DNA of 64,000 bases from Octopus sinensis (lineage: Eukaryota): contig NC_042998.1 of the NCBI RefSeq assembly GCF_006345805.1, forward strand, positions 141,298,001 through 141,362,000, read 5' to 3'. Position numbers and translations under genes: made by a program. Shown here piece by piece: positions 14,851 to 64,000 of this stretch; position 1 is the stretch's first letter; the number at the start of each line of letters is the position of its first letter. Under the pieces are notes generated by a model. It was given only the letters and a program-made list of their open reading frames with translations, had not been told where the DNA came from and did not search any database.

Positions 14851-14874
14851 AAGAGGTAAATATACAGCTGAAGG

Positions 14875-17125
14875 GGTACATTCCCGGAGGAACGAAAACT
14901 ACAGTGACTCAGACACTATATTTGGAACTATGAAGGTATTTAAACGTTCTAACAAAATGCGGACAAGTACCTTTCCAACCACAGACAAAACCGAAATCCC
15001 ACGAAAATTACCACACAGATCCTTTGGCCCCGATTTATACAAGGAGACTAAAATGGCATCAATCCAGTCTTGAGGCACTTTCTCAGTTCTCCAACAGTGA
15101 CAAATTGAACAGTGACAAATTAACATATTTAAGAGTTCAAGCATTTTGTCACCCCTATATTTCAAGAATTCTGCACATATTCCATCAGACCCTGGAGACT
15201 TATTGTTATTCAGCTTATTCACAGCAAAATAAATGTCATTTAGAGTTGATTCAAATGCCATTTCTTCTATAACTGGAAGGTGTTCGATTTTTTTCTATCG
15301 TCCTCATGTCAGTGGATGATGATCTATTCAAAAGTGCAGGAAAATGTTCTACCCAGTGCTTATGAATAGAAACGGTGTCGGTCAGAAGCAAACGTCCATT
15401 TGCTGTTCTCACTGGAGCTATTGGAGAAGATTTTGGGCCATATACCTCCTTAACATAAGAGTACAAACCCTTGGCATCATTTCTATCAGCTGCTATCATT
15501 CCTGTTTAATTTTCCTTAGAGAAGTCTGCACTTTCCTTTTCGGCTTTCTGTAAGCTTCGTTTGAGTTGGGATTCAAGGACTTTGAAAGAAGTGTAATGCC
15601 TAAGTTTTGTTTTTCTAAAAGTCGATCATGAATTTCTGCTGATCTATCTGATTTAAATCCCACTGACGAACTTGCAGCCTGAAATACTTTTGCTTTGAAA
15701 TCTTCCCATAGATTGTTTGGGTCAAAATTGATACTTTCTAGAGCATCGTGGAATCTTTGCAAGTTGCTTGATAATTTAAAGTTTGCAACATTTAACTTTT
15801 TGGGTACCTTAGGGACAGACTGACGATTTTTAGGCATTATCGAAAAATCTATTTTTCCACGCACAAGATGGTGGTCCATCCAGCTCTCTGCCCCTCTCAT
15901 GACCCGAACGCTAGAAACGTCTTTCGTATCACGTTTTCTGATCAGAATATAATCTATGAGATGCCAGTGCTTAGATCTTGGATGCATCCAGGTAGTTTTA
16001 TATTTATTTTGCTGCTTAAACAGAGTGTTGGTGACAACCAGATTATTCTCAGTACAAAACGTCAAAATAGCTATTCCATTTTTATTACATTTTCTAATCC
16101 CATGTCGACCTAAACAGGCTATGAAATCTCCCAATATGACTAGCTTGTCAGAAATTGGTACTTACCTCAATAATTGTGCTAGATCATCATAAAACTGTCC
16201 TACATTTTCATCAGAATGGGACATTGTTAGTGCGTAAATACTGACAACAGAAAGAAACCTACCTTTTGTCAGTTTAATACGGCATGACATGATCCATTCA
16301 GATATACTATTTGGAAGCTCTGCACCCAACACCAGATTCTCTACACTAACCCTTAGGTAGGCCTCTCCAAAAGATAGTATATCCATAAGTAGGTTCATTT
16401 ACTTGACCCTCACCAGAGAGATGAGTTTCAGAGAGCGCAACTATATCAAAGTATGGAAAAAATCCAAAACGTTTAATCCATAACTGTTAAAAGAACTGTA
16501 TTCTGTATTCCAGAACAATAAAAAGAAGGTAAATCATAAGCTCACGTGCAATAAGTGCAGTACGCCTTTCTGGCCTCTTGTTGAAATTATCATCAGGAAG
16601 TGTGCGCACATTCCAACAACCGAAATTCAAAGGATGTTTATTTTTACTTTTTCTTGAAGAATGTTTGATTACAGTGGCAGGATGACGAACGGGTCCAGCC
16701 TGTGATACACTGGGACACCTGCCGAGCCAGACCTGTTCCCCTGACGTTCCCAAGCCTTTTTTTGCCATTTACTGAATCTGCTTGAGACATTTTAGAGTAA
16801 GTTACAAATGCATTTTTAGGTTTCTGCCAACCAAACAATTCAATGATTTTACTAAGATTTGGAATACAGGAAGTACCTGTGCAGATGAATAATTTTCAGT
16901 GGATGTAGCTTGCACTGCACTACCCCCACCTATTGGCCCAAGAAGACTTTCACCGGTGTGACGTGAAAATTGACAAGACCAGGAACTTCCAAGGCCTCAG
17001 GTTTTATTTCAGAGATTTCCTTCTCCTAGGCAGATTACCAACCAAGGTTAAAGAGCTTCTACCTGCCCATGAGGTAAGCTATCCCATTCCAGACACCAAA
17101 CCGACACTCAAACACTCTATAAAGT
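14875..17125 (-). mobile_element. RTE-clade LINE: 5'UTR, APE endonuclease and start of RT; 3' part lost; pseudogenised
   Basis: GCWNVRTL..RPERRTALIAREL, DIVALSETHL, MGDF, TTWMHPRSKHWHLIDYIL, DHHLV, KSPGSDGI, NFRGISVLSVVGK; RTE-type 5'UTR ctaggagaaggaaatctctg. Confidence 0.92.
16452..16538 (+). repeat. 87 bp direct copy of 18838-18924 inserted in the RTE
   Basis: About 2 mismatches in 87 bp; interrupts the AREL..YFDIVAL reading frame. Confidence 0.85.
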
Positions 17126-45210: not shown

Positions 45211-45431
45211 CATATATATAATATACACATACATATATATATACCTCTCGTTAATATATATATATATAATATATATTTATATCTATCTACGCGCACATAC
45301 ACACACACACACTCACACACTTAGGCATTGCGATGAGAATAAACTGGTGTAGAACTCGATATAGGAGTACTTCTGAACGAATCGTTTGTCGAGTACAGAG
45401 CACGGTGATAAGAAAAAAAGAGATGACATAA

Positions 45432-45512
45432 AGCTTTGATGAAGCTGTAAGGTGTTACTCAGGCACTCAACTATGAGTCCATCGTATCTTATAGCAGAAA
45501 CAGCCGTAAGCT
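45432..45512 (+). ncRNA. Type I hammerhead ribozyme-like motif (C3U, long stem II) in a pLTR-like repeat
   Basis: AGCT-TTGATGA-A-GCTGTAAGGTG..TATCTTATAGC-A-GAAA-CAGCCG-TA-AGCT. Confidence 0.65.
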
Positions 45513-45626
45513 AATGAAGTTCATTGGATAATCATTCATTCCTGTGTCATCTCTTTTTTACCTCGTGTGTACCGTTGGCGATTTTTTTCCTCTGTCTTCC
45601 CTTCTCTGGATCTTTCCTTCTCCTAT

Positions 45627-45661
45627 GTTTCCGACGCAGAGCTCCGCTCGAAACGTTAAAC
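45627..45661 (+). ncRNA. Degenerate minimal hammerhead motif in a ~190 bp repeat (45575-45760)
   Basis: GTTT-CCGACGC-A-GAGC-TCC-GCTC-GAAA-CG-TT-AAAC. Confidence 0.55.
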
Positions 45662-45753
45662 CCTCCTTCTTTTCTTCTTTCCTGAGCGTTCAATAATACT
45701 ATATTTTTTCCACGTCCTCGCGTTGTGTTTTTTTTGTGCTTTCTTGTTTGGAT

Positions 45754-45838
<85 letters not shown>

Positions 45839-46111
45839 TCTACTACTAATATAGGATGAAGCTTTTTTACAGAAAAAAAAATTTCATCAAAAAATGTGGC
45901 ATCATATTAAAATACCTTTAAGGTTAAAATTATAAACAACTTATGAACAAGGGCTAAAGAAAATTATTTCTATGTCAATATGCTGATAACAGACTATTAA
46001 ATCGTCAATTTCCACTTTGTAGCGAGTAACATATGTGGAATTCACGATTAATAGTCTGTTATCAGCATATTGGCATAGAAATAATTTTCTTTAGCCTTTG
46101 TTTATAAGTTG

Positions 46112-46187
<76 letters not shown>

Positions 46188-46194
<7 letters not shown>

Positions 46195-46571
46195 AATCCG
46201 TTCTGTCTGTTGTGTGTGTCTCTTCTAGGATCTCGGGCATCCTCCATCCGATTGCGCTCAAATTTGTTATGTAGATACCGACGGTATCAGGACGTGTATT
46301 AGTCTTGAAAAAAAATTACAAAAATTGATTCCAGGTGAGAATGCGATCGATAAAGCTGTGGGAACGTGCATTTGTACGCGCAAGTACATCAGCTGTTGCG
46401 ATCGATACTACGCGTGAGTGAGAAAAATGCGCATGCAGTTTGCGCATAAAAAGCCGGCTGGCTTGAAATAATCCCACAAAATGGGACGGTCGGACAAGTT
46501 GTTTTGACAAAATTTGGTTTAAAATTGTTTGACAACTCAGCACCGTCCATTGGACGGGGGGCGTTTTGCTC

Positions 46572-46572
<1 letters not shown>
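46188..46572 (+). mobile_element. Non-autonomous Helitron, shorter relative of 12883-13677
   Basis: Same 5' ataaaatccgttctgtctg, same 3' hairpin and CTCG|T end; lacks ~430 bp of internal sequence; sits in (TA)n. Confidence 0.8.
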
Positions 46573-46636
<64 letters not shown>

Positions 46637-47361
46637 CTAAAAATACGCTACAACGAACTTACAAATTCCATTACATACTCACATACTAATACCCCAATAT
46701 CCCACATTACTGTTGCAGGATCTTTTCGGTTGCTTTTCAGATTTGTTCCAATTGTTTTCAAATTTGCTTATACCGATTTAGTTTTATGTGCTAACTTAGT
46801 AGCTTTTAAAGTTTGCAAAGTTTGGGTAATTTTTGCCAATCGAAAGCCACCATTATGTATATGACGGTAAATCTTACATTGGTGTGCATTTCCATAGTAA
46901 CAAACAGCGCTGTAGTCTGACACTTTCACCACCGCGTCCACTACCACAAATGTTGGCGAGCAATATCATTTTGTGTTCGTGTTATTTCTGTCTGTCATTT
47001 TGTGAAAATGCTGGCATCCGATTCTTGTTTTCTGATGATCAAACTTTGAACTTCTGTAACAATTAAAAGAACATTTTTTCTGCAAACAAATGAATTCCAT
47101 ATTCGGATTCAGCACGAAAAGTTACATCGATAAACCAAATTTGAGAAGTTTTCACTTAATTTTAAAATTTCCAAATCACTGCGAGCAAGCGAAAAGACTT
47201 TTACTTCACGAATCTCAGTTCAAGAAGACAGTGTATAACAACGAAGAAATTTATATATTACGCCACGCATAAGCTCTGTGTTATGTCAGATTCACCTTGG
47301 ATAACAAACTACTCAAATATTTAATCGATCACTACGTGTAAAAGGATCTAATAAGATCGCT

Positions 47362-47522
47362 AGGCAGAAATAACACGAACACAAAATGATTTTGCTCGCC
47401 AACATTTGTGGTAGTGAATGAGAGAGGTGAAAGTGTCAGACTACGGCGCTGTTTGTTACTATGGAAATGCACACCAATGTAAGATTTACCGTCATATACA
47501 TAATGGTGGCTTTCGATTGGCA
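47362..47522 (-). repeat. ~160 bp inverted copy of 46834-46993
   Basis: Direct alignment with few mismatches and one short divergent patch. Confidence 0.9.
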
Positions 47523-47930
47523 GAAACGTTAGCACGCCGGGCGAAATGCTTAGCGGTAGCAGTATTTCGTCTGCCGTTACGTTCTGAGTTCAAATTCCGG
47601 CGAGGTCGACTTAGCCTTCCATCCTTTCGGGGTCGATAAATTAAGTACCAGTTACGCACTGGGGTCGATGTAATGGGCTTAATCCGTTTGTTTGTCCTTG
47701 TTTGTCCCCTCTGTGTTTAGCCCCTTGTGGGCAGTAAAGAAATAGGTATTTCGTCTGCCGTTACGTTCTGAGTTCAAATTCCGCCGAATCGACTTTGTCC
47801 CTCATCCTTTCTCGGTCGATAAAGTAAGTAACAGTTAAGCACTGAGGTCGATGTAATCGACTTAATCCCTTTGTCTGTCTTTGTTTGTCCCCTCTATGTT
47901 TAGTCCCGTGTGGGCAATAAAGAAATAAGA
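47516..47930 (+). mobile_element. Young dimeric SINE family B; a 14 bp TSD encloses it together with the 5' inverted segment
   Basis: AATAAGATCGCTAG at 47350-47363 and 47924-47937. Confidence 0.9.
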
Positions 47931-47964
47931 TCGCTAGTCACAACATGTATATGCCTATAAATAT

Positions 47965-48160
47965 TGCTGGTGGGACTCCGTCGCTCGACAACGAGGATTC
48001 AGTTGTTATGTCAACTGAATTACTTGCTTCTGAATTAAAGTGTAAGTGGCTAAGTCTTTCACAAACACATGTGCCATTAACATAATTATCAGGCAGAATC
48101 AGCATTACACATAGGTGGGGGCCGGTGACAAGGCGATACTGTTTGAATAGTAGCTAAAAT
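47965..48160 (+). mobile_element. Old SINE-like repeat fragment
   Basis: gggactccgtcg..gacaacgagg..aagtggct..gtgacaagg resembles an octopus SINE 3' region as I recall it; not database-checked. Confidence 0.4.
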
Positions 48161-48615
48161 CCACTCGGCGTTTCCATGCAACCAACTTCACTTACAAATT
48201 ATGGGTCGCTATATAAATAGATAGATAGATAGCTACGAGCGCGCATGCATACATACATACATATCGGTTTCTATTTATAGTGTTTAGTGTGTGTGTGTGT
48301 GTGCGTGTGCGCGCGCGTGCATGAGAGAGAGAAAGAGAGAGAGATAGTGCTTATGTTTGTCCATTGCTTGTCTTCGTGTTTATTGATTTGGTGGTGTTTT
48401 TTCTGGCCTCTTCCTCGCAAGGGATATGAATACACCAACAGTACCGAATTGGAACAGTTTTTGCCTGAAGATCGCAGTAGCGTGAACGTCGAGTTGCGAG
48501 ACAAACTATCAGTCTCAGTTTCTATTAAAAAAGCACCACGTTTATTGAACCTCTCCTCTCTCATTCATCCGACATAAAGCAGCAACGTGTGTATACATAC
48601 ACATAGATATTATAC

Positions 48616-48679
<64 letters not shown>

Positions 48680-48888
48680 AACAGGGAAGGTTTACGAAAA
48701 TAAACAAAAGACGAAGGCAGGTGGAGTACAAACAAACAAATGTATTAGTATGGCGCTCAGGAATAGAAATAGAACAAGTCTTTTACGTTTCGAGCCTACG
48801 CTCTTCGACAGAAAGATACACAGAAAAAAAAACAAGGAGAGAAACAAGGAGAGAAAAAAATGCGTGTAGGAGCTAACGATCTATCATA
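48680..48888 (-). mobile_element. Short non-coding retro-repeat with a minimal hammerhead (48779-48816)
   Basis: TCTTT-CTGTCGA-A-GAGC-GTAG-GCTC-GAAA-CG-TA-AAAGA; homolog at 50280-50442. Confidence 0.75.
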
Positions 48889-49555
48889 CACACACATACA
48901 CATATACATATATATAAAGACACACGCACTCTCTCTTTCTCACTCACACACACACACACGCACACACACATACACATACATTGGTGTTTAGTGGGAAAAG
49001 AAACACAGTGTCACATGATTGCAAAGCGAGCCTCTTTAACCTCACTGCCATGCTACCTGCGCCTATATTTGTATATATTAAATATGATCGTTTGATAGTA
49101 GACAAAAGTGAAAATATTGAGAAAGAGAAAAAAAAAAGATGGTTACGTGATTATTTCACTTTGATGTTCTGCTGCTGGTTGCAGTTTTCTCTCTCTTTAT
49201 TGCTTTTATTTTGTCTACGTTCAAACGCTTATATTTATTATATTCAAACACTGATTTATTATTTTAAAGCACGCTGAAACTATTATTATATGATAACTAA
49301 ATTATCAGAGAAATAACATTAGGCGAGATACTCCATAAACTTTTTACTGACTTCGTCCAAAGCGCTTATTTTTCTTTTTCTTTTTCTTTTTTTTTTTTGC
49401 TATTCGTTATGGTTACGGATATTTTCCAGGTCCTGTATCATGCTGATATGATTGTTACTCCAAATTAGCACAAAATAAAATTATTGAAATAAAATTTATT
49501 GAAAGTATTGCAGAAAATAAATAAAATTTGGCCTCTCCCTCCCTCCCCCCTCTCC

Positions 49556-49587
<32 letters not shown>

Positions 49588-50065
49588 TTCTCTCTCTTTC
49601 TTTCTCTTGCGCGCGCGCGCTATTTGTCATTCTGTTATTACTTTGTGAGAGAATGTTAAACATATTTTATTTGAATGTTGCATTATTTCAGATACGGTAA
49701 ACGACATACTGGCAACATGTTCTGTAAGTTGTTACTATTTATGTTGTTCTGACGTAAGCAACAAAGTTTCAGGTATAGATAGATAGAGTAGTTTACATTT
49801 AATACAGTTCGCAGCTTGGTGGGGGGAAAATAGAAAAGAAACAGAAGAAAATGAAAAATGCTTAAAAAATGTTTTTCTTTATGCACGGCTCAGCATAACT
49901 AATTAATCAGTGCATATAATGTGTATGTATATGTGCGTGTATATATATAATATATATATATATTAGATATATATATATATATATATATATGCATATATAT
50001 AGCATATATATATATATGCATATATATATTATAATATGCAATAGATATATGCATATATATATATA

Positions 50066-50101
<36 letters not shown>

Positions 50102-50179
50102 TCAATATATGTTATATATGCATATATATATTATGTGTGTGTGTTGTGTGTGTGTGTGTATGGTGTGTGTGTGTGTGTG

Positions 50180-50279
50180 NNNNNNNNNNNNNNNNNNNNN
50201 NNNNNNNNNNNNNNNNNNNNNNNNNNNNNNNNNNNNNNNNNNNNNNNNNNNNNNNNNNNNNNNNNNNNNNNNNNNNNNN
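50180..50279. other. Assembly gap (100 N)
   Basis: Run of N. Confidence 1.
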
Positions 50280-50438
50280 CTCCTTGTTTCTCTCCTGTTT
50301 TTTTTCTGTGTATCTTTCTGTGGAAGAGCGTAGGCTCGAAACGTAGAAGACTTTTTCTATTCCTGAGCGCCATACTAATACATTTGTTTGTTTGTACACC
50401 ACCTGCCTTCGTCTTTTGTTTATTTTCGTAAACTTTGC

Positions 50439-50442
<4 letters not shown>
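50280..50442 (+). mobile_element. Second copy of the hammerhead-bearing repeat (motif at 50313-50350)
   Basis: TCTTT-CTGTGGA-A-GAGC-GTAG-GCTC-GAAA-CG-TA-GAAGA; ends in (TA)n. Confidence 0.75.
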
Positions 50443-50521
<79 letters not shown>

Positions 50522-50574
50522 ACTTGAAATGGATGCATGGCGTTCAATTAATATAAATAATGTATATATATATA

Positions 50575-50730
50575 TATTTTCGTCCAAATTTCCGTTCCAC
50601 CGAGGTCGACCTTGTCTTTCATCGTTTCGGGGTCGATAAAATAAGTACCAGATGAGCATTGGGCTCGATGTAATCGACTTACCTACTTCCCTGGAATTGC
50701 TGGCCTTGAGCCAAAACTTGAAACCAGTAT
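50575..50730 (+). mobile_element. SINE family B, 5'-truncated
   Basis: ccgaggtcgaccttgtctttcatcgtttcggggtcgataaaataagtacc. Confidence 0.75.
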
Positions 50731-51099
50731 TAATACAATAACCGGTATATACCAAACACCTATTTCACATTAAATATTCAGACTCTATCAAAATATCTAA
50801 TACAGCAGAATTTTTATTGTTCTTTATCCGTTTCGTTAAGTGTTTTCATTGTATTGTTGAAAATAAAAATATTTCTTAACAAGCAGTAAAAACACAAAGG
50901 AAAGAAGAAATTATTGGTTTTCAACGAATAATTTTTTTTCATAATAATTATACTTTTATATTTTATTTTAGAAATTTACGTGATGTTGAAGGGAGGCGTT
51001 AAGTGATTTCACGATTCCATCAAGGAGCCAATGATATCAACATTTTTCCGACCCTTGTGTTATGGGTTCACGTTGCTCAGTCACTTAATTCACTATATT

Positions 51100-51495
51100 T
51101 TTTCTACTCTAGAGACAAGGTTCGAAATTTTAGGGGAGGGGGCCAGTCGATTAAATTGACTCCAGTACAGAACTGGTACTTTATTTATCAACCCCGAAAG
51201 GATGAAAGGCAAAGTCGGCGGAATTTGAACTCAGAACACGAAGACAGACGAAATACCTATTTCTTTACTACCCACAAGGGGCTAAACACAGAGGGGACAA
51301 ACAAGGACAGACAAACGGATTAAGCCCATTACATCGATCCCAGTGCGTAACTGGTACTTAATTTATCGACCCCGAAAGGATGAAAGGCAAAGTCGACCTC
51401 GGCGGAATTTGAACTCAGAACGTAACGGCAGACGAAATACTGCTACCGCTAAGCATTTCGCCCGGCGTGCTAACGTTTCTGCCAACTCGCCGCCT
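51100..51495 (-). mobile_element. Young dimeric SINE family B
   Basis: Shares the diagnostic ggtagcagtatttc insertion and gtaatgggctt with the copy at 47516. Confidence 0.9.
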
Positions 51496-51567
51496 GAATT
51501 GTCGTCGTCGAGCGACAGAGATCCATCAATCTATCCATACGTAAGCATTTGGAATATAGGTTTAAAG

Positions 51568-51768
51568 CAGTGCTTTTCAAACTTTTTGCTGGAGCGGAAC
51601 CTCAAGGAAACATTTCACTGGCTCGAGGAACCCCTATGCAATAATTTAATAGTCTTATGCACACATATCTGCACAGGAGAATTAAAAATTACTGCCGATT
51701 TTAGCAGTTTTGTAACTTCTTGCGGAACCCCTGGACTGTACTGGCGGAACCCTGGTTGAAAACCACTG
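51568..51768. mobile_element. hAT/Charlie-like MITE
   Basis: TIRs CAGTGCTTTTCAA / TTGAAAACCACTG; 8 bp TSD gtttaaag/gtttaaaa. Confidence 0.85.
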
Positions 51769-51834
51769 GTTTAAAAGAATGTGTTGTCAAAGGAGGGAGA
51801 GAGAGAGAGAGAGGGGGAGAGAGAGAGAGAGAGA

Positions 51835-51874
<40 letters not shown>

Positions 51875-52345
51875 CAGAGGGAGGGAGAGAGACAGAGAGA
51901 GAGAGAAAGCGGGGCAGGCGGGAGATGAGACAAAATAAAACAGGAGGGAACGGAAAACCAAATAGATAACGGTATTGGTGTAAGGTCAGTGACCAGAATG
52001 ACGAAGTGAGGTGCAGGGATGGACGGAAGGATAGCGATGAGAAAAACAGTAATGAAATCCTATTTTCATGCTGAGGGAGGAAGACTATGAAGAGGGGTGC
52101 AACGGGTGTAGGAGAGTTGTATGTTTATAAACGCATCTATCTCCATATACACGCATACAAACACACACACACACACATAACCACACACATGTCAACACGC
52201 TGTAACTTCTGCTGATTAGTGATGATTATAAAAATGAATATACTCATGCTTTGGGTATTTTCCTGTTTACATCACCAAACCTATAGATGAGTGCACTATG
52301 TGTGTATATGTATGTATGTGTGTGTGTCTGTGTCTGTGTATACAC

Positions 52346-52437
<92 letters not shown>

Positions 52438-52597
52438 GTCTATCTAGCCAGTTAGCTAGCTATCTGTTTTTGTCTATTTGTGTGTGTGTGTGTGTGTGTG
52501 TATGTGTGTGTGCATGTGTGTGTGGTTGCTCACACGCGTGTGCATGTGTAAATAAATTGAATGACAAGGGAACAGGAATTACATAATCAAATTCATT

Positions 52598-52678
52598 GGC
52601 TTACAGATATTTCAGCTATAAGAAGCAGTGCACTAAGAGCTGAGCGCTTGCGCATCAGGTTATGACTTCCTCAGAGCC
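52598..52678 (-). ncRNA. Type I hammerhead ribozyme-like motif, same family as 45432
   Basis: GGCT-CTGAGGA-AGTCATAA..TTATAGCT-GAAA-TATCTG-TA-AGCC. Confidence 0.65.
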
Positions 52679-52852
52679 TTTAAAATGAAGTATACGCCCA
52701 CGTTAAGACAAGCGGAAAGTGGGAAAATATATTGTGTGAGTCAAAGAAGAAGGATAATGAATAGATAAGACGAATGGAATTAGAGTCTGTATGCGCATGC
52801 GCATATATTTTCTGGTGGTTTAAGGTAGTACTGGCGATAGTTAATCGTTATA

Positions 52853-53240
52853 AGACGGCGAGCCGGCAGAAACGTTAGCACGCCGAGTGAAATCTTAGCG
52901 GTATTTCGTTTGTCTTTACGTTCAGAGTTCAAATTCCGCCGAGGTCTACTTTGCCTTTCAGAGTTTCGGCGTCGATAAATTAAGTACCAGTTACGTACTG
53001 AGGTTGAGCTAATCGACTGTCTCCTCCCCCAAATTTCGGGCCTTATGTCTAGAGTAGAAAAGAATCGTTAATCGTTAGAGCATCGGAAAGAAATATCTTG
53101 CGACGTCTTTTGGGTGGTTTTTACGTTTTGAGTTCAAATGTTGCCGAAGTCAACTTTACATTATATATCTCTGAGGTCGATGGTGTCGATTAAGCCCCTC
53201 CCCTCAAAATTTACCTTGTGCCTAAATCAGAAACCAATAC
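52853..53240 (+). mobile_element. SINE family B (TSD gttaatcgtta) followed by an older B copy
   Basis: Consensus match. Confidence 0.8.
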
Positions 53241-53598
53241 TAATCATTCACTTTTATTGCCTTTTCCGCACCGCATAATTAGTTCGTGGTAACATTATAG
53301 GGGTTCTTTCGAAGTTTATATATATAATACGGCGGACAAAGAGAAATGGACTACATCGACTGAAAGAGCTGGGAAGAAACAAACTGGCATCGAGTCTGTA
53401 TGTGTACCCGATGTGCAGTGTGTATAGCCCTGGGTGTATATATGTATACGTGCAGATTTGTATGCTTTGTTTTATGTATGTCTTCTCATACATATACTTG
53501 TATATCTAGACATGCTTTTGTATGTATGTATGTATGTATGTATGTATGTATATATGATGCATGCGCGTGCGCGTGTGTTTGTGTGTGTGAGTGTATGT

Positions 53599-53657
<59 letters not shown>

Positions 53658-53662
<5 letters not shown>

Positions 53663-53745
53663 ACAAAATTGTTACCAGTTGAAATATGCTTGGGCATATT
53701 CGAAGCCGTTCACTGTATTTCATGGAGAACTTTCCTCACTGGAGA
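53658..53745 (+). repeat. Homolog of 12710-12818
   Basis: aaatacaaa..ttgttacc(a/g)gttgaaatatgcttggg(g)catattcgaa..ttcactgtattt..catggagaac. Confidence 0.75.
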
Positions 53746-54004
53746 CATATATGTGCGAGCGTACGTGCATGTACGCGCGCGCGTGTGTGTAGGTGTTTTG
53801 TGTGTGGTGTGTGTTGTGTGTGTGTGTGTGTGTGTGTTCATTTTCTATACCACACTCGGTTCAGTAATTATCTTTTCTGTTCCTATCTTCTGTTGTAAAA
53901 AAAAATCATTCGGTTTAATCATATGAAACATATTACATTAAAATAAATTAATCACATTTTCCAGTTGGTGTCTTTTCTTATCGATTATTCTTTTATTTTA
54001 TTCT

Positions 54005-54375
54005 TTTATTCTTTTATCTTGTTTCAGTCATTAGACTGCAGCCAAGCTGGGGCACCACCTTGAAGAACTTTTAGTCGAATAAATCGATCCCAATACTTTT
54101 TCTATCGGTTTCTTCCGCCGAACCGCTAAGTTACGGGGACGTAACAAACCAACACCGGTTGTCAAGTGGTGCTCGGGGACAAACATCGACACAAAGACAC
54201 ACACACACACATACACACACAGATATATAGAACAGACTTCTTTCAGTTTCCGTCTACCAGATCTGCTAACAAGGCTTTGGACAGCCCGAGGCTATAGTAG
54301 AAGACACGTGCCCATGGTTCCACGCCGTGTGACTGAACCCGGAACCATGTGGTTGGGGAGCTTGCTTCTTACCAT
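54005..54375 (-). mobile_element. SINE family A
   Basis: Reverse match to the consensus. Confidence 0.85.
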
Positions 54376-54447
54376 CGATTATTTAACGTTTATTTGTTTG
54401 TTTCTCACTTTCAATCGGTGCAGTTTGCTACCTCTTTCTCCATCATA

Positions 54448-54962
54448 TCTATATATATAAAACTGTAGTTGTGTGAGTGTCTGTCCCCTTCGATTTAGAT
54501 TCCTAACTCCTCCCACATTTTGCGGTGCAGTTTAACCAAATTCGGGTATCTTATAGTCGTGATTAATATCGAGCCCGTCTGGCTATTAGCGCGCGTCTAC
54601 GATAAGTCTACGATTTTAAAAATAATTTAACATCATTTTTTATTCCATTTTAATGCATAATTTTTCGTGTGTCGATGGCGGCGGTGTTGGCGTCCACGCT
54701 CAAACACCTGCACCTGTTTGCTTCTCCCCCTTCTTCCCTCCCTCGTGAAGCTGTGGGGAAGGGAGTGTAAGCAAATCAACGTCGTAATGCGTTGTCAAGG
54801 AGACCAGCGTTCTTTTAGAACAACGACTTCATGGCTTGAAGACACCAAAACAGAAATGGCTAAGAAAGCCCGAATTGGCATCTATAAGGGAAGTAACTCT
54901 CTAAAAATGCTTATATAGTTATTTCCCTTACAAACCCGAGCAACGCCGGGCGATACTGCTAG
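54448..54962 (+). mobile_element. Canonical non-autonomous Helitron
   Basis: A|TCTATATATATAAAA...CCCGAGCAACGCCGGG-cgatactg-CTAG|T, no TSD. Confidence 0.9.
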
Positions 54963-56052
54963 TTATATCTAGAAAATTCGTAAGCCATTTTCTTTTAAAC
55001 ACTCTACTTTAATTATGTTAACGCTAGCTTTATTCTTTGTCCTGTGCGATTCTGTGCGATTTCTCTCAAAGATATATTTGCTGAGGATTTAGGAGAACGA
55101 TAAGAAGAGAGGGTGTAACTGAACGGAAATAGTGTTGATAGGAGGTTAGTGAAACAGAAAGGAAACGAAATTTATAGTTTTTTGTAGGAGAGGAATTGTA
55201 GTGCATAGATTGACGTAAGGGATAGGAATAAGATTTAATAGGTACATACGCAATTCACATCGAGTGCCCAAAAGTGCGAGGTGGGAGGTAGAGGCAGATA
55301 GATATGAGGAAAAGAGAACTAAAGTAGAAGAGCATTTGTTTAAGCTTATTGGGAAAAATGTGTTACGCATAAAGATATGTTACTTTCTCTTTCTCTTTGT
55401 GTTTATGCGTATGTGGGAGTATGTGGTGTGCAGGGCCGGCTCTAGGGTTAGTGGTGACACGGGTAAGCTGAAATTCTGTGCCCTTCCAAACAACAACGCA
55501 GATCTGGAGTAACGAAGGCATGTCATTAATGAGATTGCGAATAACAACGAAAGGACTCTAGCAAGCAAATCATACCAAACCAAACCAAACCAAATCAAAC
55601 CAACTGATTGATTTATTTGAACAATTGATTGATTAACTAATTGACTAATAATTCTTTCACATTTCGGTACAAGGCCAGCAATGTTAGGAAGAGTGAGCAA
55701 ATTGATAACATTGACCCCCAGTGGCTGGTTAGGCTTTATAGATGATCCGAACATTCAGGTCAAGCTTGCAGTTTCAAGAATAATTTCCTTCATCCTTCTC
55801 ACCAGTCTTGGTGGCCCTACTGACAAAATAATTTATAAAAAAGAAAAAAAAAACTTGTTTCTTATGAATCTCTACACAACTGTTCTTATTCGTCAGCAAC
55901 TACGTTAACCTGAACAGGAAAAACAAAAACAAACAAAATTGAAAGACACACCTTTAAACTTCCAATAATTTCTTCTAGTAACATAAAGCTGTTAATTCAT
56001 AGAAGATGGCTATATTCGATCAGATCGATATATATATATATATATATATATG

Positions 56053-56132
<80 letters not shown>

Positions 56133-56164
56133 GAGAAAGAAAGAGAAAGAGGGATTAATATAAA

Positions 56165-56302
56165 AAAGTCAGGAGGTATGAGATGAATATATTTATTTCA
56201 CCAGTTGATATCCATAGGGTGACGCCTTTTGGGCTGCGAAACGGCCGTTATCCTATGGATATCAGCTGGTGAAATAAATATATACATCTCACACCTGACT
56301 TT
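56165..56302. repeat. Inverted pLTR-like fold-back with a hammerhead 3' half at its centre
   Basis: ~58 bp arms; centre GAAA-CGGCCG-TT; the opposite arm reads CGTC. Confidence 0.7.
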
Positions 56303-57110
56303 CTTTCTATTCTATATACTCTTCATGAAATAACTTTCACTGACTGAATTTGCTGGATTTCAGCTGCATGGGACTCGACATTACACACCCACGTGTTGGT
56401 TTACTATGTGGTTTGTAATTGGATCCACTCAAGGAGCTATTTCGTGATTATCACTGGATTAGATAAATCCATATCCTTCATTAAATATATATGTGTATGT
56501 TTAAAGCAGTGTTTAGGTATAAGCAAACTTGAAGTTAATTAAAATATGCTTGTAACATATTTCTACTTCTCAAGGTAAATTCCCATAGAGAAAAAATTCT
56601 CTTACGGTAAAAGGTGTAAAAACGCCATATCTGCTCAATGTTGCCATCTGTCGGATCTCCAGATGCAACGTTTCTAGCTCTTTAATCTTTATCAATGGGA
56701 AATACCGAAGCGAGGTAACTCTGGGAAGAGTTAAATCGCATTATTAGACTGCCAGATCGAGGGAAATTCAGCAGTATAAGCAAGTTGCCTAACGTCACAT
56801 AACCACACCTGTGCCTTAGCCACGTCACTCTCTCCCTCTCTCTTTCTCTCTCTCCCTCTCTTTATTTCTCCGCCTCTCTCTCTAAACACACGCGTATACA
56901 CACATTAGTATCGAATAGTGAGAATGAGTGCTCAATACCGCATTTGGTGACTAACCATATTCTCAGTCAATATGGACTCATATTACCAAGTGGAACGTTT
57001 GAAAAATTGCAAACTGCAAGCATGAAACCATTGGTAGCATTGTTAAGTTATTAGTCCACAAATAAGAGTGTTTTTGCGTGTGCGTGTGTATGTGAATATA
57101 TGCATGTATG

Positions 57111-57160
<50 letters not shown>

Positions 57161-57174
57161 ATATATATATATCA

Positions 57175-57794
57175 TAGGGTAATAAAATAAATTATTATTA
57201 CCACTGGCCTAGCACAAAAGACGAGTTAGTCGTTAGACTATATATTTTTCGTATAGAAATATAATAAAAGGCTTCCAAATAAGGAAGTGTAGTGCTAGAA
57301 ACACAAAAAGGGATAAATTCATGAAAGGAATGAAAATTAAAAACATTTACCATCTCAGCTATATCCCAGACCGAACGGTTTCTACCTCTTTTTAAGCAAA
57401 CACACAGAATATATTTGCCAGGCCAGGTTCTTCAGTGGGAAGCCTTCGTAATCCTAGACGCACAGACTGTTAGAAGCACATGTAGATCTAACGGTTTGTA
57501 TACCTTAACATTTCAAACCTCTGCGCAGACGCAAACCATACCCGGCGAACAGAGAGGATGCCGGTAAGAGATTTACGAACAAATTTATCAAGCAATATTA
57601 AAACATAATAAAATATGTTGAAGAACTGAAGAACCTGGCCTGGCAAATATATTCTGTGTGTTTGCTAAAAAAGAGGTAGAAACCGTTCGGTCTGGGATAT
57701 AGCTGAGATGGTAAATGTTTTTAATTTTCATTCCTTTCATGAATTTATCCCTTTTTGTGTTTCTAGCACTACGCTTCCTTATTTGGAAGCCTTT

Positions 57795-57802
<8 letters not shown>
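57175..57802 (-). mobile_element. Non-coding Penelope-pLTR-like element with 178 bp near-perfect inverted repeats, inside (TA)n
   Basis: Arms 57259-57436 and 57625-57802 differ at about 2 positions. Confidence 0.85.
57364..57440 (-). ncRNA. Apparently intact type I hammerhead ribozyme
   Basis: TCCCA-CTGAAGA-ACCT..(GCAAATATA/TGTGTTTGC)..AGGT-A-GAAA-CCG-TT-CGG-TC-TGGGA: stems I, II and III, full core and GUC site. Confidence 0.8.
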
Positions 57803-57861
<59 letters not shown>

Positions 57862-58480
57862 CAAACACAAAACTAGACTAGTACACATGGTTATTTAGGT
57901 TTAGCTGTCCGTTAGAACCGTGGCTCACTGATTGGAGCCTCTAAATATTCAGCGTCGTTGATGGAAACGAGGGAGGTACGCAAGCTAGGAAACATCGTTC
58001 TCCTTCACTTCCGTTAACGAGAGAGGTATTCGCGTCTGACCCCCCATCTCTCTTATCTTATCCTCAACCTTAGGTTCGTAAGAGTTCGCCCTAGTTTCTA
58101 AAATACATTTTCATCACAGTTCAGGTTGAGTGGTACGTTGAACGTCTGCTTGTTAAGATTCGTAATAACGTAGACATATTTGGTTAGCGAAATATTATTA
58201 ATGAATTTAAAACAAAAACGAATACAAAAATAAAGAAAAAACGTTTCGATCGTTGGAGATTTTTTTATGACTTATGGATATAGCAAGAGAACTTTGGTTT
58301 AGCATGTTGTTAAGGCTGTATGAACAAAACCAGTCAGAAAAAATTATCCCTTAAGACAACATACGCATGTATTACTACATCAAATGCTTCTAACGAAAGC
58401 TGCAACCAAAAAATACATGAAAGGCGTTAATAATATAAGCGACAATAAATGTAACTATGCTCTCTTTCCTTCTTTCTCCT

Positions 58481-58517
<37 letters not shown>

Positions 58518-58584
58518 CATATATATATCATATATATACATACACATATATATATGCGTATATTTATGTGTAAATGTGTGTGAG

Positions 58585-58621
<37 letters not shown>

Positions 58622-58724
58622 AGATAGATTAATTATTATTTTTTAATCAGCGGAAGTTAAAAGTTACTAATATATATACTTACCTTTACAGTTCTATATA
58701 TTGTTTATTATCAAACGTACACAA

Positions 58725-58788
<64 letters not shown>

Positions 58789-58874
58789 ACACACACACAC
58801 ACATACACACACACAATTATATATGTAGTATGTATGTATGTATGTATGTATGAATGTATGTGTGTGTGAATTTA

Positions 58875-58920
<46 letters not shown>

Positions 58921-59593
58921 ATATATATGTGTGTGTGTGCATGTGTGAATACATGTAGATATACCTATGCATATATAGACATACGTTTAACGTGTGCAAA
59001 TGATTTGTCTTGTGTTGTTGTTGTGTAAGCGCATGTGTGCATGAAAGTATCTGCGTGTGTATGCACTCACGTAATGTGCATGGGTTTTCACTGATGTTGA
59101 CACGTTTTATTTCCAATAATATATTAGTGTTAGATAAAAGCCAACAAATCACTGCTGGGAATTGGAATGTAACATTCAATGAAGCGGGAAATGGGACAGG
59201 AAGCATGGCTGGCTCTTGCAAACCGGAGTCCATCAATATGTATGAAGTCAGGGATTTTGGATTTTTTTTTTTTTTTTTTCGTTTGTTGTTTGTTGTTGTA
59301 ACAGAAAGTCAAACACCATTACCACAACCAAACATTATAGAGTTATATATACAAGATGAAATAAAAATCAACCCATGTTACACATGCTGAAGTTTATATG
59401 TGCGCGCGCGCGTGTGTATATATATATATATATATAATATATAGATATATATATATATATATATGTATATGTAATGTATGCGGTGTATGTGTCTATATAT
59501 AATTGTGTGTGTGTATATATATATATATATACGCACACATATATATATATAACATTATATATAATATGTAATATATAATATATAATATATGTA

Positions 59594-59624
<31 letters not shown>

Positions 59625-60109
59625 CATAAATAATATATATAATATATGTATATAATATATATATATATATATAACAGGTGTTTTGCATTTCGCTTATATC
59701 TGGTAATGTTTTCTTGGTAAGGTAAACAAAACGTTTCCTATTTAATTGAAGTTTTTATTACAGATAAATGAAGAGTTTTCACATTTTAACATTCCTCTCT
59801 CCCCTTTCCTCCCTCTCCATCTCTCTCTTTCTTTCTCACATCTCTCTCCCTCCCCCCCCTCTCTCTTTGTCTCTTACAACCAAACAAAAACAAATGATCT
59901 ACCTTTCTAAAGCAATTCGTTGTCAAGTAATTCATGTTTCTATGAATGTTTATAGCAGGCTTTGTCTTTTTATTTTGTTTTTCATATTCCATTGCCACTA
60001 ATATGTGCTTCTGTAGTAGTATAATAATCTATCAAGTGATCTGTTAGGCATGATCTATATTAGATGAGGTCAGAATAATACTCAAACATGTTTCAAGTTG
60101 TCTCCCTTG

Positions 60110-60450
60110 AGATAATTATCATTCAAAGTCCGTTTTCTATGCTGGTAAATGTTGGGCGGTTCGACAGGAACTGGCGAGCTTGGGGACTACATCAGGTTTC
60201 GATGCCTGCTATACCATTGTTTCTAGAGCTTTTCCTAATACCAACCACTTTTCTGGGTGTATTGGGTGCTTCTTACGTGGCACCAGCTCTAGTAAGGACA
60301 ACAGGTAACTCACAAGACAAGAGCCCTCAAGTAAGGTGTAGAGTAGTGTTGAGGGAGGTGGTTTTATGCCAGATGATGAGAGGTTAGAGTATGATAAAGG
60401 GACAGAAACAGGTGTCTTGCTGTAGAGGAGATACATGGCTACTCTGACTG
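60110..60450 (-). mobile_element. Old RTE-tailed SINE-like remnant
   Basis: Reverse reads agcatagaaaacggactttgaatgat, resembling RTE-type 3' ends. Confidence 0.4.
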
Positions 60451-61366
60451 GAAAACGAAGATGTTGGTGAAGATGTGTGAGGCCATACCGTTAAGTTACC
60501 CAAAAGTGCATAAAAAAGAAGTGGTATGGGTGAGTACGTTTGTAGGAGTACGAGAGATGAGTGCAGATAGAGAGAGAGGTAGGGAGGTAGAGTGAGTGAC
60601 GAAGGTCAAATGTGAATGTCAGCGAGAGAAGGTGGAGAAAGTAGATGTGGATCAAAGGAAGTAATAGGTGGCAGCAGAAATGATGTGAAGAAGTTTGTGG
60701 CGCGAGGTGCAAGAGTTTGTGGCGTGAGGTGCACAGTGCTGAGGACGAAATGTGATGGACGTAAGGATGGAAATGCTGGGAGGCTGACAGGGGTATCGTT
60801 AGGAAGGACTGCTGTTAGCAATATATGTAATGGGAAAGGGTTGGTGGAAAAGGAGAATAATGCGACTAATACTGATTTTCTGTTTTTCCTTTCAAATTAA
60901 CTTTTTAATTCTCCTACATAAAATATTAAAATTTACTTAACTTTTTTTTCTTTTTATTTTAATGCATATTTAATACATTTAAAAAATTTTTTAATTTTAA
61001 TGCATATGGCATCTTTGAATTGTTAAATCGCTTCAACAATTCTGTGGAAGTACATAGCCAAGCGGATAAGGAATGTCGCTCATGATCATAACGAGATATG
61101 TTCAATTCCTGGACCATGTGATACATCGTGTTCTTGAACTCGGCACTTAATTTCATGTTACTTTAGTCTTGTCAACTGCAACGAATACCAACCAGGTGCA
61201 AGCCTCTCTCTTCCTCTGCCTGTCATCTTCGATGTTCCACCGAGTCAAGAGTGACGAACCTCAGATTATGTCTATGTCTGCTGGCGACTACACGGTCACC
61301 TGAAAGTATTAGTAAAAGTATGGTATATGTTACTGTCTCATGCATGATGGCTGATAGTAGTGTACT

Positions 61367-61860
61367 AGGCGCAGGCGTGGCTGTATGGTAAGAAACTTGC
61401 TTCCCAACCACATGGCTCCGGGTTCAGTCCCACTGCGTGGCATCTTCGGCAGGTATCTTCTACTATAGCCCCCGGCCGTCCAAAGCCTTATGAGTGGATT
61501 TGGTAGATGGAAACTGAAAGACGTCAGCTGTGTAAATGTGTGTGTGTGCGTGTATGTGTGCGTGTGCATGTGTGTGCTCGCGTGCGTGCATGTGCGTGTG
61601 TGTGTGCGCCTTTGTGTACGTGTTTATCTCTGTCTTTGTGTACATGTTTGTGTACGTGTTTGTCCCCCACCACCGCTTGACAACCGGTTTTGGTGTTTAT
61701 GTCCCCGTAACTTAGCGGCTCGGCAAAAGAAACTGATAGAATAAGTACAAGGCTTTACTAAAAAATTGTAAGTACTGAGGTCGATTCGTTCGACTAAAAT
61801 TCTTCGAGGCGGTGCCCCAGCATGGCCGCAGCCTATTAACTAAAACAAGTAAATGATAAA
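61367..61860 (+). mobile_element. SINE family A, full length
   Basis: A and B boxes and conserved body. Confidence 0.9.
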
Positions 61861-62651
61861 ATTATCCTAAAAAATTATATTTATTACAACATGGTTGTGT
61901 GGTTAATTTTGGATTTATGGAGGGTCAAAGTTGGGAACAAAAACAGGACAGTGGAGATATATAAGAAAGCCGAACGAAAACAAACATGGGGGGGGGGTCT
62001 TTAGACCAGAACGAGAGGAAAATAGTGAACGCTGGGAGAAATTTTTTTTTTGATAAGAGAAAAGATAGAAGAGAGAGAGAGAGAAAATACGTCTAGTCTT
62101 TTAAACGTCCGTGCAGGGAAAAGAAAGATGGTCATGTGAAGAAAAGAAAGATGGACAATGGTCACGTGTGAGCAATGAGAGAAAGTAAAAGAGAAAAAGA
62201 GGAGAGAGGCGGGTGAAGGGGAGAAAAGGGAATTAGAGAAGGATGGTGGAAGAAAACAGTATAGAGTGGAGTCGCATCAAAAAGGTTAATAAACTTACTT
62301 GGAAATGGATGTGTAGTGTTCAATTAAATAATAATATAAATGATATTATATATGAGTGTGCCTGTGTGTATATATATATATGCATATATAGGTACAGGAC
62401 GTCTCACACACACACACACACTTGTTCGGTTGTTGTGACCTACAGCCACATTGTATTATTTGTTCCTTTCTTATGGGCAGAATCGATACAGCTGATATAT
62501 AGTAAACTGGATTATTGGCGTAATGGAGGTTATTGTTCGTTTAAAAGTGAAGGCGAGTGGGGGGGTAGGGGGTACTATTTGCATTGGCTTGCATGAAACT
62601 GCTTTCTGTTCTTCAGAAGGATCACAAACTATGTATTGTTTCATCGTATAA

Positions 62652-63251
62652 TAGGGGGGTTAATGCGATTTTGCCCAGAAATCACGTTTTCAAAATTTTA
62701 ATATATCCCCAACCCCGCTGCAATTTCTTAATTTGTAACTTTTTCCGAATTTTTTTTATCGACGTAGAATAGAGAGATTACGAATTTGGAAATTTTTTTC
62801 TTAGTTTGATTTTTCCTCCCATCACCTACCCGCTTTCAAAAAGCTAAAGCTTCCTAATATCTCACTTTCGTTTGATGTTTCACGCATATGTAATAGTTGA
62901 CGTAAAAAATACCAGACCACCACCAGAAAACTTGATTTGCAAGAAACAACAGGTAAACGACATAATTTTTGAAGAAACTTCCTCGCTTTCCAAAATGCTA
63001 AAAGTAAAACACTGGAAGTTTGTGGCTTTTTCAAAGTAGTGAAGTGATGGTTGGATGTTTGGGAAAGAGATTTTAGTGTTTCTTTAAGAAAAAAAGGAAG
63101 AAAAAAATTCTTAAAGATTCATAATCACTGTCTTTTTCTACGTAGATTACCAAACAAATTTGGAAAAAAGTAAACAATGAAGCAATTGGAGTGGGGAGGG
63201 AGAAAATGAAATGTTGAGAACGTGTTTTGGGGGCTAAATCCTAACCTCCTG
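62652..63251. mobile_element. Ancient fold-back DNA element with long degenerate TIRs
   Basis: Left tagggggtta..gattttgccc..cacgttttcaa..atcgacgtagaa aligns to the reverse complement of ttctacgtagat..ttgagaacgtg..gggctaaatcctaacctcctg. Confidence 0.55.
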
Positions 63252-64000
63252 TGTCGAAAACATAGGAATCAGAAGAATTTTAGGAAAAAAATAAGGTGGG
63301 TGTGCAAATGTCACTTCGGACATGCTAGAAACAATAGGTAAAGGACAGGATTTCTGGAAAAACTTCCTTTTAATGCAGCTCTATCAAATCACCCTTACTC
63401 ATATATCTCACATTTATTCACTCCTTACCTTCTCATCTCTTCCTATCTCTTCCCCACTCCTCTCCCACCCTTCCCTCACATTATCTTGACCACCAACTAA
63501 CACTCCTTTTCTCTCTTCTTTCACCCTTTCTTCACTTTTTCACTCTTCATTTTTCTCTTTTTTCTCTCTCTTCCTTCCTCTCATTTTTCTTCCTGTTTTC
63601 ATTTTAACCCATCTCCTCATTCTAATCATACGCATCTCTCTACTCCCATCTACCCACAAATACTACCAATACATTCTCAAATTTTTATTCACACCACAAG
63701 GCACTTTCAAATGAGCAACTCAGAATCCACGGCTCCATATTTTAAAATGACTGAACATGAACTACTACTGGAACTTACATCCATCTACAGGAAACTTATT
63801 TACCACTTCTATACACCATTTTCCTCGAATAATGGAACTGCAACTACAATATCTATATTTATTTTATATTGTATTTCTACCTTCATTCTCTTATTTCTCT
63901 CTATATTCCCTATTACCTCCCTTTCCATAATTCCTTATTTCGAATTCAAATATTTACCTCTATTTAACCATCTCACATCGTCTTTGATGAAGGGATATCC

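What the first reader, a model, noticed from the sequence alone, without database searches (positions are those of the whole stretch)
45400..64000. Cluster of several distinct hammerhead-ribozyme retro-repeat families (Penelope-pLTR/retrozyme-like)
Seen: type I hammerhead architecture (stem I, CUGANGA, stem II, GAAA, stem III, NUH, stem I') appears complete or in part at 45432, 45627, 48459, 48779, 50313, 52598, 56238, 57364/57625 and, cut by the window end, ~63981. These fall into at least four sequence families of short non-coding elements, most next to (TA)n or (CA)n tracts and several with inverted terminal copies. Known: Penelope-like elements carry minimal hammerheads in their pLTRs, often with a palindromic stem III that works as a dimer, and retrozymes are non-autonomous relatives. 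Inference: this genome may host a diverse and probably poorly catalogued set of ribozyme-bearing non-autonomous retroelements mobilised by PLE reverse transcriptases. Two PLE remnants lie in the same window.
Basis: partly seen in the sequence, partly recalled or inferred. Interest (0 to 1): 0.75.

Follow-up and report, generated by a model that had tools for sequence, protein, structure and literature searches.

The report
Penelope retrotransposon ends carrying hammerhead ribozymes
The ten hammerhead-shaped sites are mostly worn-out end pieces of seven families of Penelope-like jumping genes, a known arrangement; the unusual detail is that the most abundant family carries a changed letter in the ribozyme core in nearly all copies, predicted to weaken self-cutting, which is untested.

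Summary
All ten coordinates are real: they fall on nine insertions of seven repeat families (A-G), each with a type I hammerhead fold near its 3' end. Stems covary across nine families (71 paired positions against 31 when partners are swapped; 0 of 100,000 permutations). Only one window copy is intact and canonical. A and B are 5'-truncated ends of coding Neptune-type Penelope-like elements (PLEs; RT plus GIY-YIG upstream in longer copies). E is an RT-less Hydra-clade derivative. D is a 439-nt non-coding, retrozyme-like unit. No coding partner was found for C, F or G. (TA)n targeting, back-to-back arms and two fixed 3' ends match published PLE insertions. The 'cluster' is a tail of a genome-wide background (about 136 such blocks expected). 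Best detail: family A (13,797 exact pattern hits) has U instead of A at core position 6, while its stems stay invariant and only the free positions 7 and 17 turn over. Cutting and RNA were not tested. PLE hammerheads are published, including an octopus Hydra element, and this scan noted similar families elsewhere in this genome.

The parts
45322..45428 (-). Family C, inverted arm with the ~95-nt 'tail' (second fixed 3' end)
   Evidence: Matches tails of 40 genomic copies
45429..45561 (+). Family C direct arm; hammerhead 45432-45512, long stem II; this copy has C3>U and one mismatch in the stem III palindrome
45560..45757 (+). Family B: 5'-truncated 3' end of a Neptune-type PLE, inserted right at the end of the C copy; minimal hammerhead 45627-45661 with C4 (family variant) and A9>C (damage); (TA)n 45758-45836 follows
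48416..48580 (+). Family G remnant; hammerhead 48460-48500, GAAA damaged to GAAC in this copy
48681..48887 (-). Family A: 5'-truncated 3' end of a Neptune-type PLE; minimal hammerhead 48816-48779 with the family-wide U6 core
50280..50441 (+). Family A, second copy (5' end in the assembly gap 50180-50279); hammerhead 50313-50350, U6; (TA)n 50442-50518 follows
52552..52700 (-). Family C, eroded copy; hammerhead 52678-52598, canonical core, stems II and III decayed
56162..56485 (+). Family F fold-back insertion: inverted arm 56162-56224, direct arm with only the 3' half of the hammerhead (56233-56253) and the tail; the CUGANGA half, ~130 nt upstream in other copies, is lost
57157..57615 (-). Family D left arm: unit positions 84-439 plus tail 1-104 (more than one 439-nt unit); intact canonical hammerhead 57440-57364
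57625..57802 (+). Family D right arm: unit positions 262-439; hammerhead lacks the 5' strand of stem I; ends in (TA)n
63370..64000 (+). Family E, 3' part of an RT-less Hydra-clade derivative; hammerhead starts at 63980 and, with the tail, runs on beyond the window; this copy has C3>U and U16.1>C
14169..14879 (+). Outside the finding: coding remnant of a Hydra-clade PLE (post-RT region and GIY-YIG part), cut off by a LINE
   Evidence: motifs compared by eye with the Hydra alignment in the supplement of PMC8557442

Best explanation
The ten sites are fixed, mostly decayed 3' ends of seven Penelope-like element (PLE) families, each ending in a type I hammerhead fold, that were likely pasted one by one into TA-rich microsatellites by PLE reverse transcriptase-endonuclease proteins. 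Shown: A and B continue upstream, in longer copies, into RT and GIY-YIG coding sequence; E into a Hydra-type endonuclease remnant without RT; D is a 439-nt non-coding unit; copies share fixed 3' ends at (TA)n, vary at the 5' end, and often form back-to-back arms, one with a tail. Inferred from published PLE work: the protein nicks AT-rich DNA and starts reverse transcription at two internal sites of the RNA (giving the two fixed ends), usually stops early or inverts, and copies uncut or re-joined RNA across the ribozyme site. Inferred: D and E borrow these proteins; the hammerheads act in the source elements, as dimers through the palindromic stem III and probably with protein help, to trim multi-unit RNA; the fold is selected, but fast cutting is not needed for spread, which is why family A could fix U6 and most of B C4. 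The window copies are inert except possibly the left D arm.
For: Coding link, A: L210 and L211 are 86-90% colinear from ORF to hammerhead and hold RT (PF00078, E=6.7e-8 in L210) and GIY-YIG (PF01541, E=4.5e-4 and 2.4e-3, below the curated cut-off) with a C-x4-C-x2-C linker; L041, L050, L059 and L317 also have the endonuclease upstream; L211 has a 107-nt direct repeat of its 3' end before the ORF. B: L217 and L343 are 83-88% colinear from RT to the B hammerhead. E: Hydra endonuclease-region hits upstream of the hammerhead in L211, L303 and L304 and inverted in L305; an intact Hydra ORF hits only with residues 486-685 in 3 of 12 E stretches, never with its RT. D: all 30 pattern loci map onto one 439-nt unit, head-to-tail in L191, L193 and L202, longest stop-free frame 98 codons. 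Covariation: 71 paired positions in nine families against 30.7 in permutations with the same register freedom, 0 of 100,000. Family A copies found by the 3' flank alone: 24 of 24 that reach the ribozyme have U6; 0 of 34 constrained columns but 37 of 113 flank columns are polymorphic (Fisher P=2e-5); position 7 takes all four bases and position 17 takes A, U or C, never G. In four runs under three organism labels position 7 varies and no other base reaches 2% at position 6. Literature: min-HHRs are mostly single and probably truncated PLEs (PMC4209133); inverted arms, tails, (TA)n targets (PMC8557442); two RT start sites, ribozyme mutants still insert, protein-assisted cutting (PMC11167929).
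Against: No coding partner was found for C (60 loci), F (21) or G (9 plus extensions), with probes from two clades only, so for these the PLE origin rests on architecture. The B link crosses a 1.3-kb CA-rich tract that aligns less surely. Columns and copies are related by descent, so the P values overstate independence; at least 3 of the 24 flank-selected A copies are also among the pattern loci used for the profile, and 3 of 27 hits that did not reach the ribozyme were dropped. Minimum-free-energy folds give the hammerhead junction for the A copies and partly for C1 and D1, not for B, G, C2 or E. Mutational scans report low activity for single changes in the CUGA turn (PMC9901934), so U6 may be nearly dead. 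Neptune against Nematis was not settled by a tree.
Confidence: 0.88

Rival explanations
1. One reading: all families are short non-autonomous, retrozyme-like elements that spread through small circular RNAs and only borrow PLE enzymes.
For: True for D: 439-nt non-coding unit, 36% GC, circular fold z=-2.6, two complete hammerheads in tandem in L207 and L209, arms longer than one unit. E lacks RT. C, F and G have no coding partner in my loci. Most A and B copies are under 300 bp.
Against: A and B run into RT and GIY-YIG sequence in several independent loci, with ragged 5' ends. No D array longer than two hammerheads among 30 loci.
Confidence: 0.07
2. In family A the motif is no longer a ribozyme: U6 killed catalysis and the fold is kept only as a binding or folding signal for the PLE protein.
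For: A6C lowers the rate in Mg2+ by several orders of magnitude at 0.3 mM (PMC7151607); CUGA-turn mutants have low activity; catalytic mutants of the anole PLE still insert in vitro; the family reached at least 13,797 copies with U6.
Against: G5, G8, A9, GAAA, U16.1 and the 'H is not G' rule are kept across copies 63-98% alike, as expected if the catalytic geometry still matters. This rival changes only the role of the motif, not the PLE origin; as a share of the question 'does family A cut' I give it about 0.45.
Confidence: 0.03
3. The cluster is a host-selected locus: ribozymes kept together to process a host transcript.
For: Nine insertions in 18.7 kb against 0.51 expected for these seven families and none in the first 45 kb.
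Against: The families were defined from this region, which inflates that contrast; family-blind counts give about 136 such blocks per genome, the four common families alone 2-28 blocks. Six of ten copies have core or stem damage, both strands are used, TA tracts are 1.5 times denser than average and B sits at the end of C.
Confidence: 0.015
4. The motifs are chance matches in AT-rich repeats.
For: Strict descriptor and the listed Rfam matches give no hammerhead in the region.
Against: Family-level canonical cores, covarying stems and palindromic stem III in nine families; descriptor 9 against 0-1 in nulls.
Confidence: 0.005

Closest known systems
Minimal type I hammerheads in pLTRs of metazoan PLEs (Cervera and De la Pena 2014, PMC4209133; text parts 1-2 of 4 read, supplement searched, one file not searchable)
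   Same: A and B: 4-5 bp stem I, extra base between 9 and 10.1, G10.1-C11.1, no stem III beyond a CG palindrome, mostly single truncated copies, some back-to-back pairs.
   Different: Family A has U6 in about 96% of exact-pattern copies; their consensus is CUGANGAH and the only core change in the parts read is U3-A8. About 7 in 10 B copies have C4 (my count of the first 100 rows). No octopus in the searched supplement.
Neptune (or Nematis) EN+ PLEs (PMC8557442; passages, section 11 and supplement passages read)
   Same: RT with DKG motif, C-x2-5-C-x2-C linker, C-terminal GIY-YIG with CCHH, (TA)n targets, partial direct repeat at the 5' end.
   Different: Long CA-rich 3' UTR (0.9 kb in A, 2.8 kb in B); clade not fixed by a tree.
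Hydra-clade PLEs, e.g. Hydra-1_Obim with its hammerhead (PMC8557442 supplement)
   Same: E and the window remnant carry the Hydra post-RT motifs and C-x-C linker; an intact young Hydra family in this genome has a hammerhead with an extra base on both sides of stem II, like C and E.
   Different: E has lost RT; its hammerhead sequence was not found in that supplement (0 hits for three motifs) and differs from Hydra-1_Obim.
Animal non-LTR retrozymes (PMC7229834, passages read; bioRxiv 10.64898/2026.07.22.740005, parts 1-2 of 5 read)
   Same: D: non-coding, 439 nt, low GC, type I hammerhead, head-to-tail units, well-paired circle.
   Different: Mostly partial, back-to-back insertions with a 104-nt tail, no long arrays; circular RNA and cutting not shown. 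A, B and E are not retrozymes.
PAc of the green anole (PMC11167929; passages and second half of the main text read)
   Same: Two fixed 3' ends with a tail between them; AT-rich targets; copies pass through the uncut ribozyme site.
   Different: Tails here are about 95-200 nt against 30-40; PAc is Penelope/Poseidon clade.
Natural core variants A6C (phage Bcep176) and U4C (viroid) (PMC3088659, PMC7151607; passages read)
   Same: Same positions changed as in A (6) and B (4); both are weak but measurable.
   Different: A6U was not found in my searches; here it is fixed in a family of more than 13,000 copies, not a single locus.

Membership tests
EN+ Penelope-like element (families A, B) | RT ORF upstream of the repeat, same strand, colinear in independent copies | tested here: met
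EN+ Penelope-like element (families A, B) | C-terminal GIY-YIG endonuclease | tested here: met
   PF01541 at E=4.5e-4 and 2.4e-3, below the curated cut-off; motif visible in translations
EN+ Penelope-like element (families A, B) | pLTR: partial direct repeat of the 3' end before the ORF | tested here: met
   L211, 107 nt at 93%, family A; not seen for B, whose long copies are 5'-truncated
Neptune clade (A, B) | CX2-5CxxC linker and CCHH motif | tested here: met
   read in translations of L041, L211, L217; shared with Nematis
Neptune clade (A, B) | RT phylogeny | not tested
   no reference sequences in the script machine; likeness to DreriNep1 judged by eye
Hydra clade (E) | Hydra-type post-RT and endonuclease region, C-x-C linker, no CCHH | tested here: met
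Hydra clade (E) | Own RT (autonomy) | tested here: not met
   no RT hit in 12 E stretches; in L303 the 5' start leads to the endonuclease remnant within about 550 bp
PLE insertion anatomy (all families) | (TA)n target, inverted 5'-truncated arm, optional tail | tested here: met
   TA link weakest for C (12 of 30)
PLE (C, F, G) | Coding partner | tested here: inconclusive
   none within the loci read, two clades of probes
Type I hammerhead | Covarying stems I and II, palindromic or paired stem III, NUH | tested here: met
Type I hammerhead | Canonical CUGANGA and GAAA core | tested here: met
   majority core in C, D, E, F, G and part of B
Type I hammerhead (family A) | A at core position 6 | tested here: not met
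   only 438 of 13,797 hits have CUG plus a base other than U, 22 of the first 100 of these with A; 24 of 24 flank-selected copies have U
Type I hammerhead | Self-cleavage at NUH | not testable with these tools
   needs a bench assay; only contigs were served
Non-LTR retrozyme (D) | Non-coding unit of a few hundred bases, GC below 45% | tested here: met
   439 nt, 36% GC
Non-LTR retrozyme (D) | [quoted passage not shown] | tested here: met
   L207 and L209, 439-440 bp apart; 2 places among 30 loci, no longer arrays
Non-LTR retrozyme (D) | Expressed as circular RNA | not testable with these tools
   no RNA holder on record, contigs only
Non-LTR retrozyme (A, B, E) | No protein-coding sequence | tested here: not met

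The most novel reading that the evidence does not exclude
Family A carries a natural A6U hammerhead, a core change not found in my literature searches, that still cuts, as a dimer and only when helped by the element's own protein or by Mn2+, so that a throttled ribozyme has been selected in one of the most successful PLE lineages of this genome; beside it, family D is a cephalopod retrozyme copied from RNA circles by PLE enzymes.
Probability: 0.3. Interest if true: 0.62.

Novelty: new variant of a known kind. Interest (0 to 1): 0.4.

Why it matters
What hammerheads do for Penelope-like elements is open: they are nearly universal, yet dispensable for insertion in vitro. This genome offers sister lineages with canonical, C4 and U6 cores and known copy numbers, so one can test directly whether cutting rate matters for spread. 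The U6 family also shows that descriptor and Rfam scans miss the commonest hammerhead-shaped motif here. The cluster itself and the PLE-hammerhead link are ordinary.

Tried and rejected
Strict descriptor and Rfam scan: no hit on the single copies; rejected as a test because the families carry extra bases and the copies are decayed. DNA search with family A gave nothing because common words are skipped; patterns were used instead. RNA: no RNA holder listed for D; contigs of runs guessed to be RNA cover D and A but cannot show expression, ends or circles, so nothing is concluded. The idea that the two A copies are arms of one insertion: the DNA between them has no match to long A copies. The RT next to D in L207 is an unrelated inverted Hydra piece; no other D locus shares it. 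The intact young Hydra family as parent of D, E, C, F or G: its 3' end matches none of them. Search for what follows the C tail: copies stop at a second fixed end. The 49-of-60 count of inverted arms is not used, since the query itself held an inverted piece. The Poisson P of 4e-9 is not used as the measure of clustering, since the families were defined from this region. Lunse et al. 2017 (PLE hammerhead variants that cut as dimers) is not held; I know it only from recall and a review passage, and it may list U6. Searches for A6U or octopus PLE ribozymes in print; none shows A6U in a hammerhead; a 2026 octopus repeat annotation has no mention of hammerhead or ribozyme in its main text. Supplements of the bioRxiv retrozyme paper were not visible and file 1 of PMC4209133 was not searchable; either may bear on novelty. 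The host as an octopus is inferred from recalled repeat content and from earlier notes of this scan, not from a call that names it.
Full report
Observation. The window is G000:C2:141298001-141362000. The region 45.3-64 kb is non-coding and rich in microsatellites. A strict hammerhead descriptor found nothing there and none of the 150 listed Rfam matches is a hammerhead, but each of the ten sites shows parts of the core. Genome searches turned the sites into seven families: A (48779, 50313; 13,797 exact hits), B (45627; 10,159), C (45432, 52598; 262), D (57364, 57625; 58), E (63981; 2,096), F (56238; 22) and G (48459; 41 matches). Reversed controls gave 0. These are lower bounds.

The fold is real at family level. 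Aligned copies give canonical CUGANGA cores for C, D, E, F and G although, for C, D, E and F, the core was not in the search pattern. One genomic copy each of nine families (A-G and two met by the way) has stem I of 3-6 pairs and stem II of 2-7, with different sequences. With equal freedom of register for swapped partners, own partners give 71 paired positions, permutations 30.7, none of 100,000 reaching 71; A and B are relatives, so nine is an upper count of independent cases. Stem III is a perfect palindrome in A, B, C, E and F and nearly so in the others, as in the dimer-type PLE hammerheads. The window copies are mostly damaged: C3>U (45432, 63980), A9>C (45627), GAAC (48460), eroded stems (52598), lost 5' half (56238), lost stem I strand (57626). 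Only the left D arm is intact and canonical.

What the families are. A: copies share a 3' end at (TA)n and have ragged 5' ends. Longer copies run into a GIY-YIG endonuclease with a C-x4-C-x2-C linker and an RT; L211 is near full length and has a 107-nt repeat of its 3' end before the ORF. B: L217 and L343 are colinear from RT to hammerhead. Both fit Neptune-type PLEs by motif; no tree was made. E: L303 shows inverted arm, partial unit, tail, a Hydra endonuclease remnant and the hammerhead, with no RT; an intact Hydra protein hits E stretches only with residues 486-685. D: all 30 loci map on one 439-nt non-coding unit; 3' ends fall at unit position 439 or about 104 of the next unit; L207 and L209 have two complete hammerheads in tandem; the window's left arm is longer than one unit and crosses the predicted cut site at 329/330, so its template was a multimer or a re-joined circle. 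C and F have the same back-to-back arms and tails, G has back-to-back pairs; no coding partner was found for these three.

How it most likely works. Published PLE work gives the mechanism for this anatomy: inverted truncated arms, tails and (TA)n targets; nicking of AT-rich DNA and two internal RT start sites that bound the tail; insertion that does not need ribozyme cutting; cutting that needs the protein. I infer that these copies arose so, that D and E use proteins in trans, and that the ribozyme trims multi-unit RNA in source elements. Which protein moves D or E is not shown; the intact Hydra family found has a different 3' end.

The U6 core. In family A position 6 is U: 438 of 13,797 hits have another base after CUG, 22 of the first 100 of those A. 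Copies chosen by the 3' flank alone in 1.73 Mb of held sequence: 29 hits, 27 distinct, 24 reach the ribozyme, all with U6; they are 63-98% alike; 0 of 34 core and stem columns but 37 of 113 flank columns carry a second common base; positions 7 and 17 turn over, 17 never to G. Contigs of four runs under three organism labels show all four bases at 7 and no other base above 2% at 6. So the fold is under constraint with U6 in it. Against activity: A6C is slow in Mg2+ and rescued by Mn2+; CUGA-turn mutants are weak in a full scan. About 7 in 10 B copies have C4 (count by eye of 100 rows), a known weak variant. I put cutting by family A under some physiological condition at about even odds.

The cluster. 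A family-blind descriptor gives 4 hits in 18.7 kb against 9 in 400 kb, P=9e-4, about 136 such blocks per genome. TA tracts are 1.5 times denser than average there and B sits exactly at the end of C. No special locus is needed.

Known and new. PLE hammerheads, their massive dispersal as truncated ends, an octopus Hydra element with hammerhead and the PLE origin of retrozymes are in print. Earlier notes of this scan describe similar families in this genome, one a truncated Neptune tail with a changed core letter; my reading was written before those look-ups, and they supplied the lead to PMC11167929. New here, as far as searches show, are these family descriptions and the fixed U6 core; the most relevant paper on PLE variants was not held. 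Verdict: real, mostly ordinary, one testable variant; interest 0.4.

Noticed in passing
window 18713-18667 (-): Another intact canonical type I hammerhead (CUGAUGA, 4-bp stem II, near-palindromic stem III, 3-bp stem I) of a further family, outside the finding.
   Followed up: no
L323-L326 (e.g. G000:C2:88212000-88221900): Young intact Hydra-clade PLE family: 727-codon frames in many copies, pLTR-ORF-pLTR with inverted 5' arm, canonical hammerhead with only 2-bp stem II and an extra A on both sides.
   Followed up: partly
L329:9100-9560: A further hammerhead family (H) in a fold-back insertion, locally duplicated at 394 bp, next to the tail of a D-related element.
   Followed up: partly
family F (L236, L243, L245): Stem II of this hammerhead holds an insert of about 120 nt between CUGANGA and GAAA, beyond usual descriptor limits.
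   Followed up: partly
L217:6000-8500, L343: The 3' UTR of family B is largely a 2-kb CA/CATA microsatellite, so the element itself spreads microsatellites.
   Followed up: no
random and neighbouring stretches L002-L020, L051-L090: At least eight more hammerhead families turned up in 590 kb.
   Followed up: no
window 47517-47787 and 51215-51485: Inverted pair of 271-bp SINE-like copies, 96% alike, 3.4 kb apart, around the G and A copies; one is a 183-bp tandem.
   Followed up: no
window 17387-17555 and 35513-35572: Two long perfect or near-perfect hairpins, probably MITE-like or fold-back insertions.
   Followed up: no
window 14880-16900 (-) and 35608-36982 (+): Remnants of RTE-like LINEs; the first cuts off the Hydra remnant, the second has RVT_1 at E=3.6e-14.
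   Followed up: no
window 50180-50279: 100-base assembly gap hides the 5' end of the second A copy.
   Followed up: no
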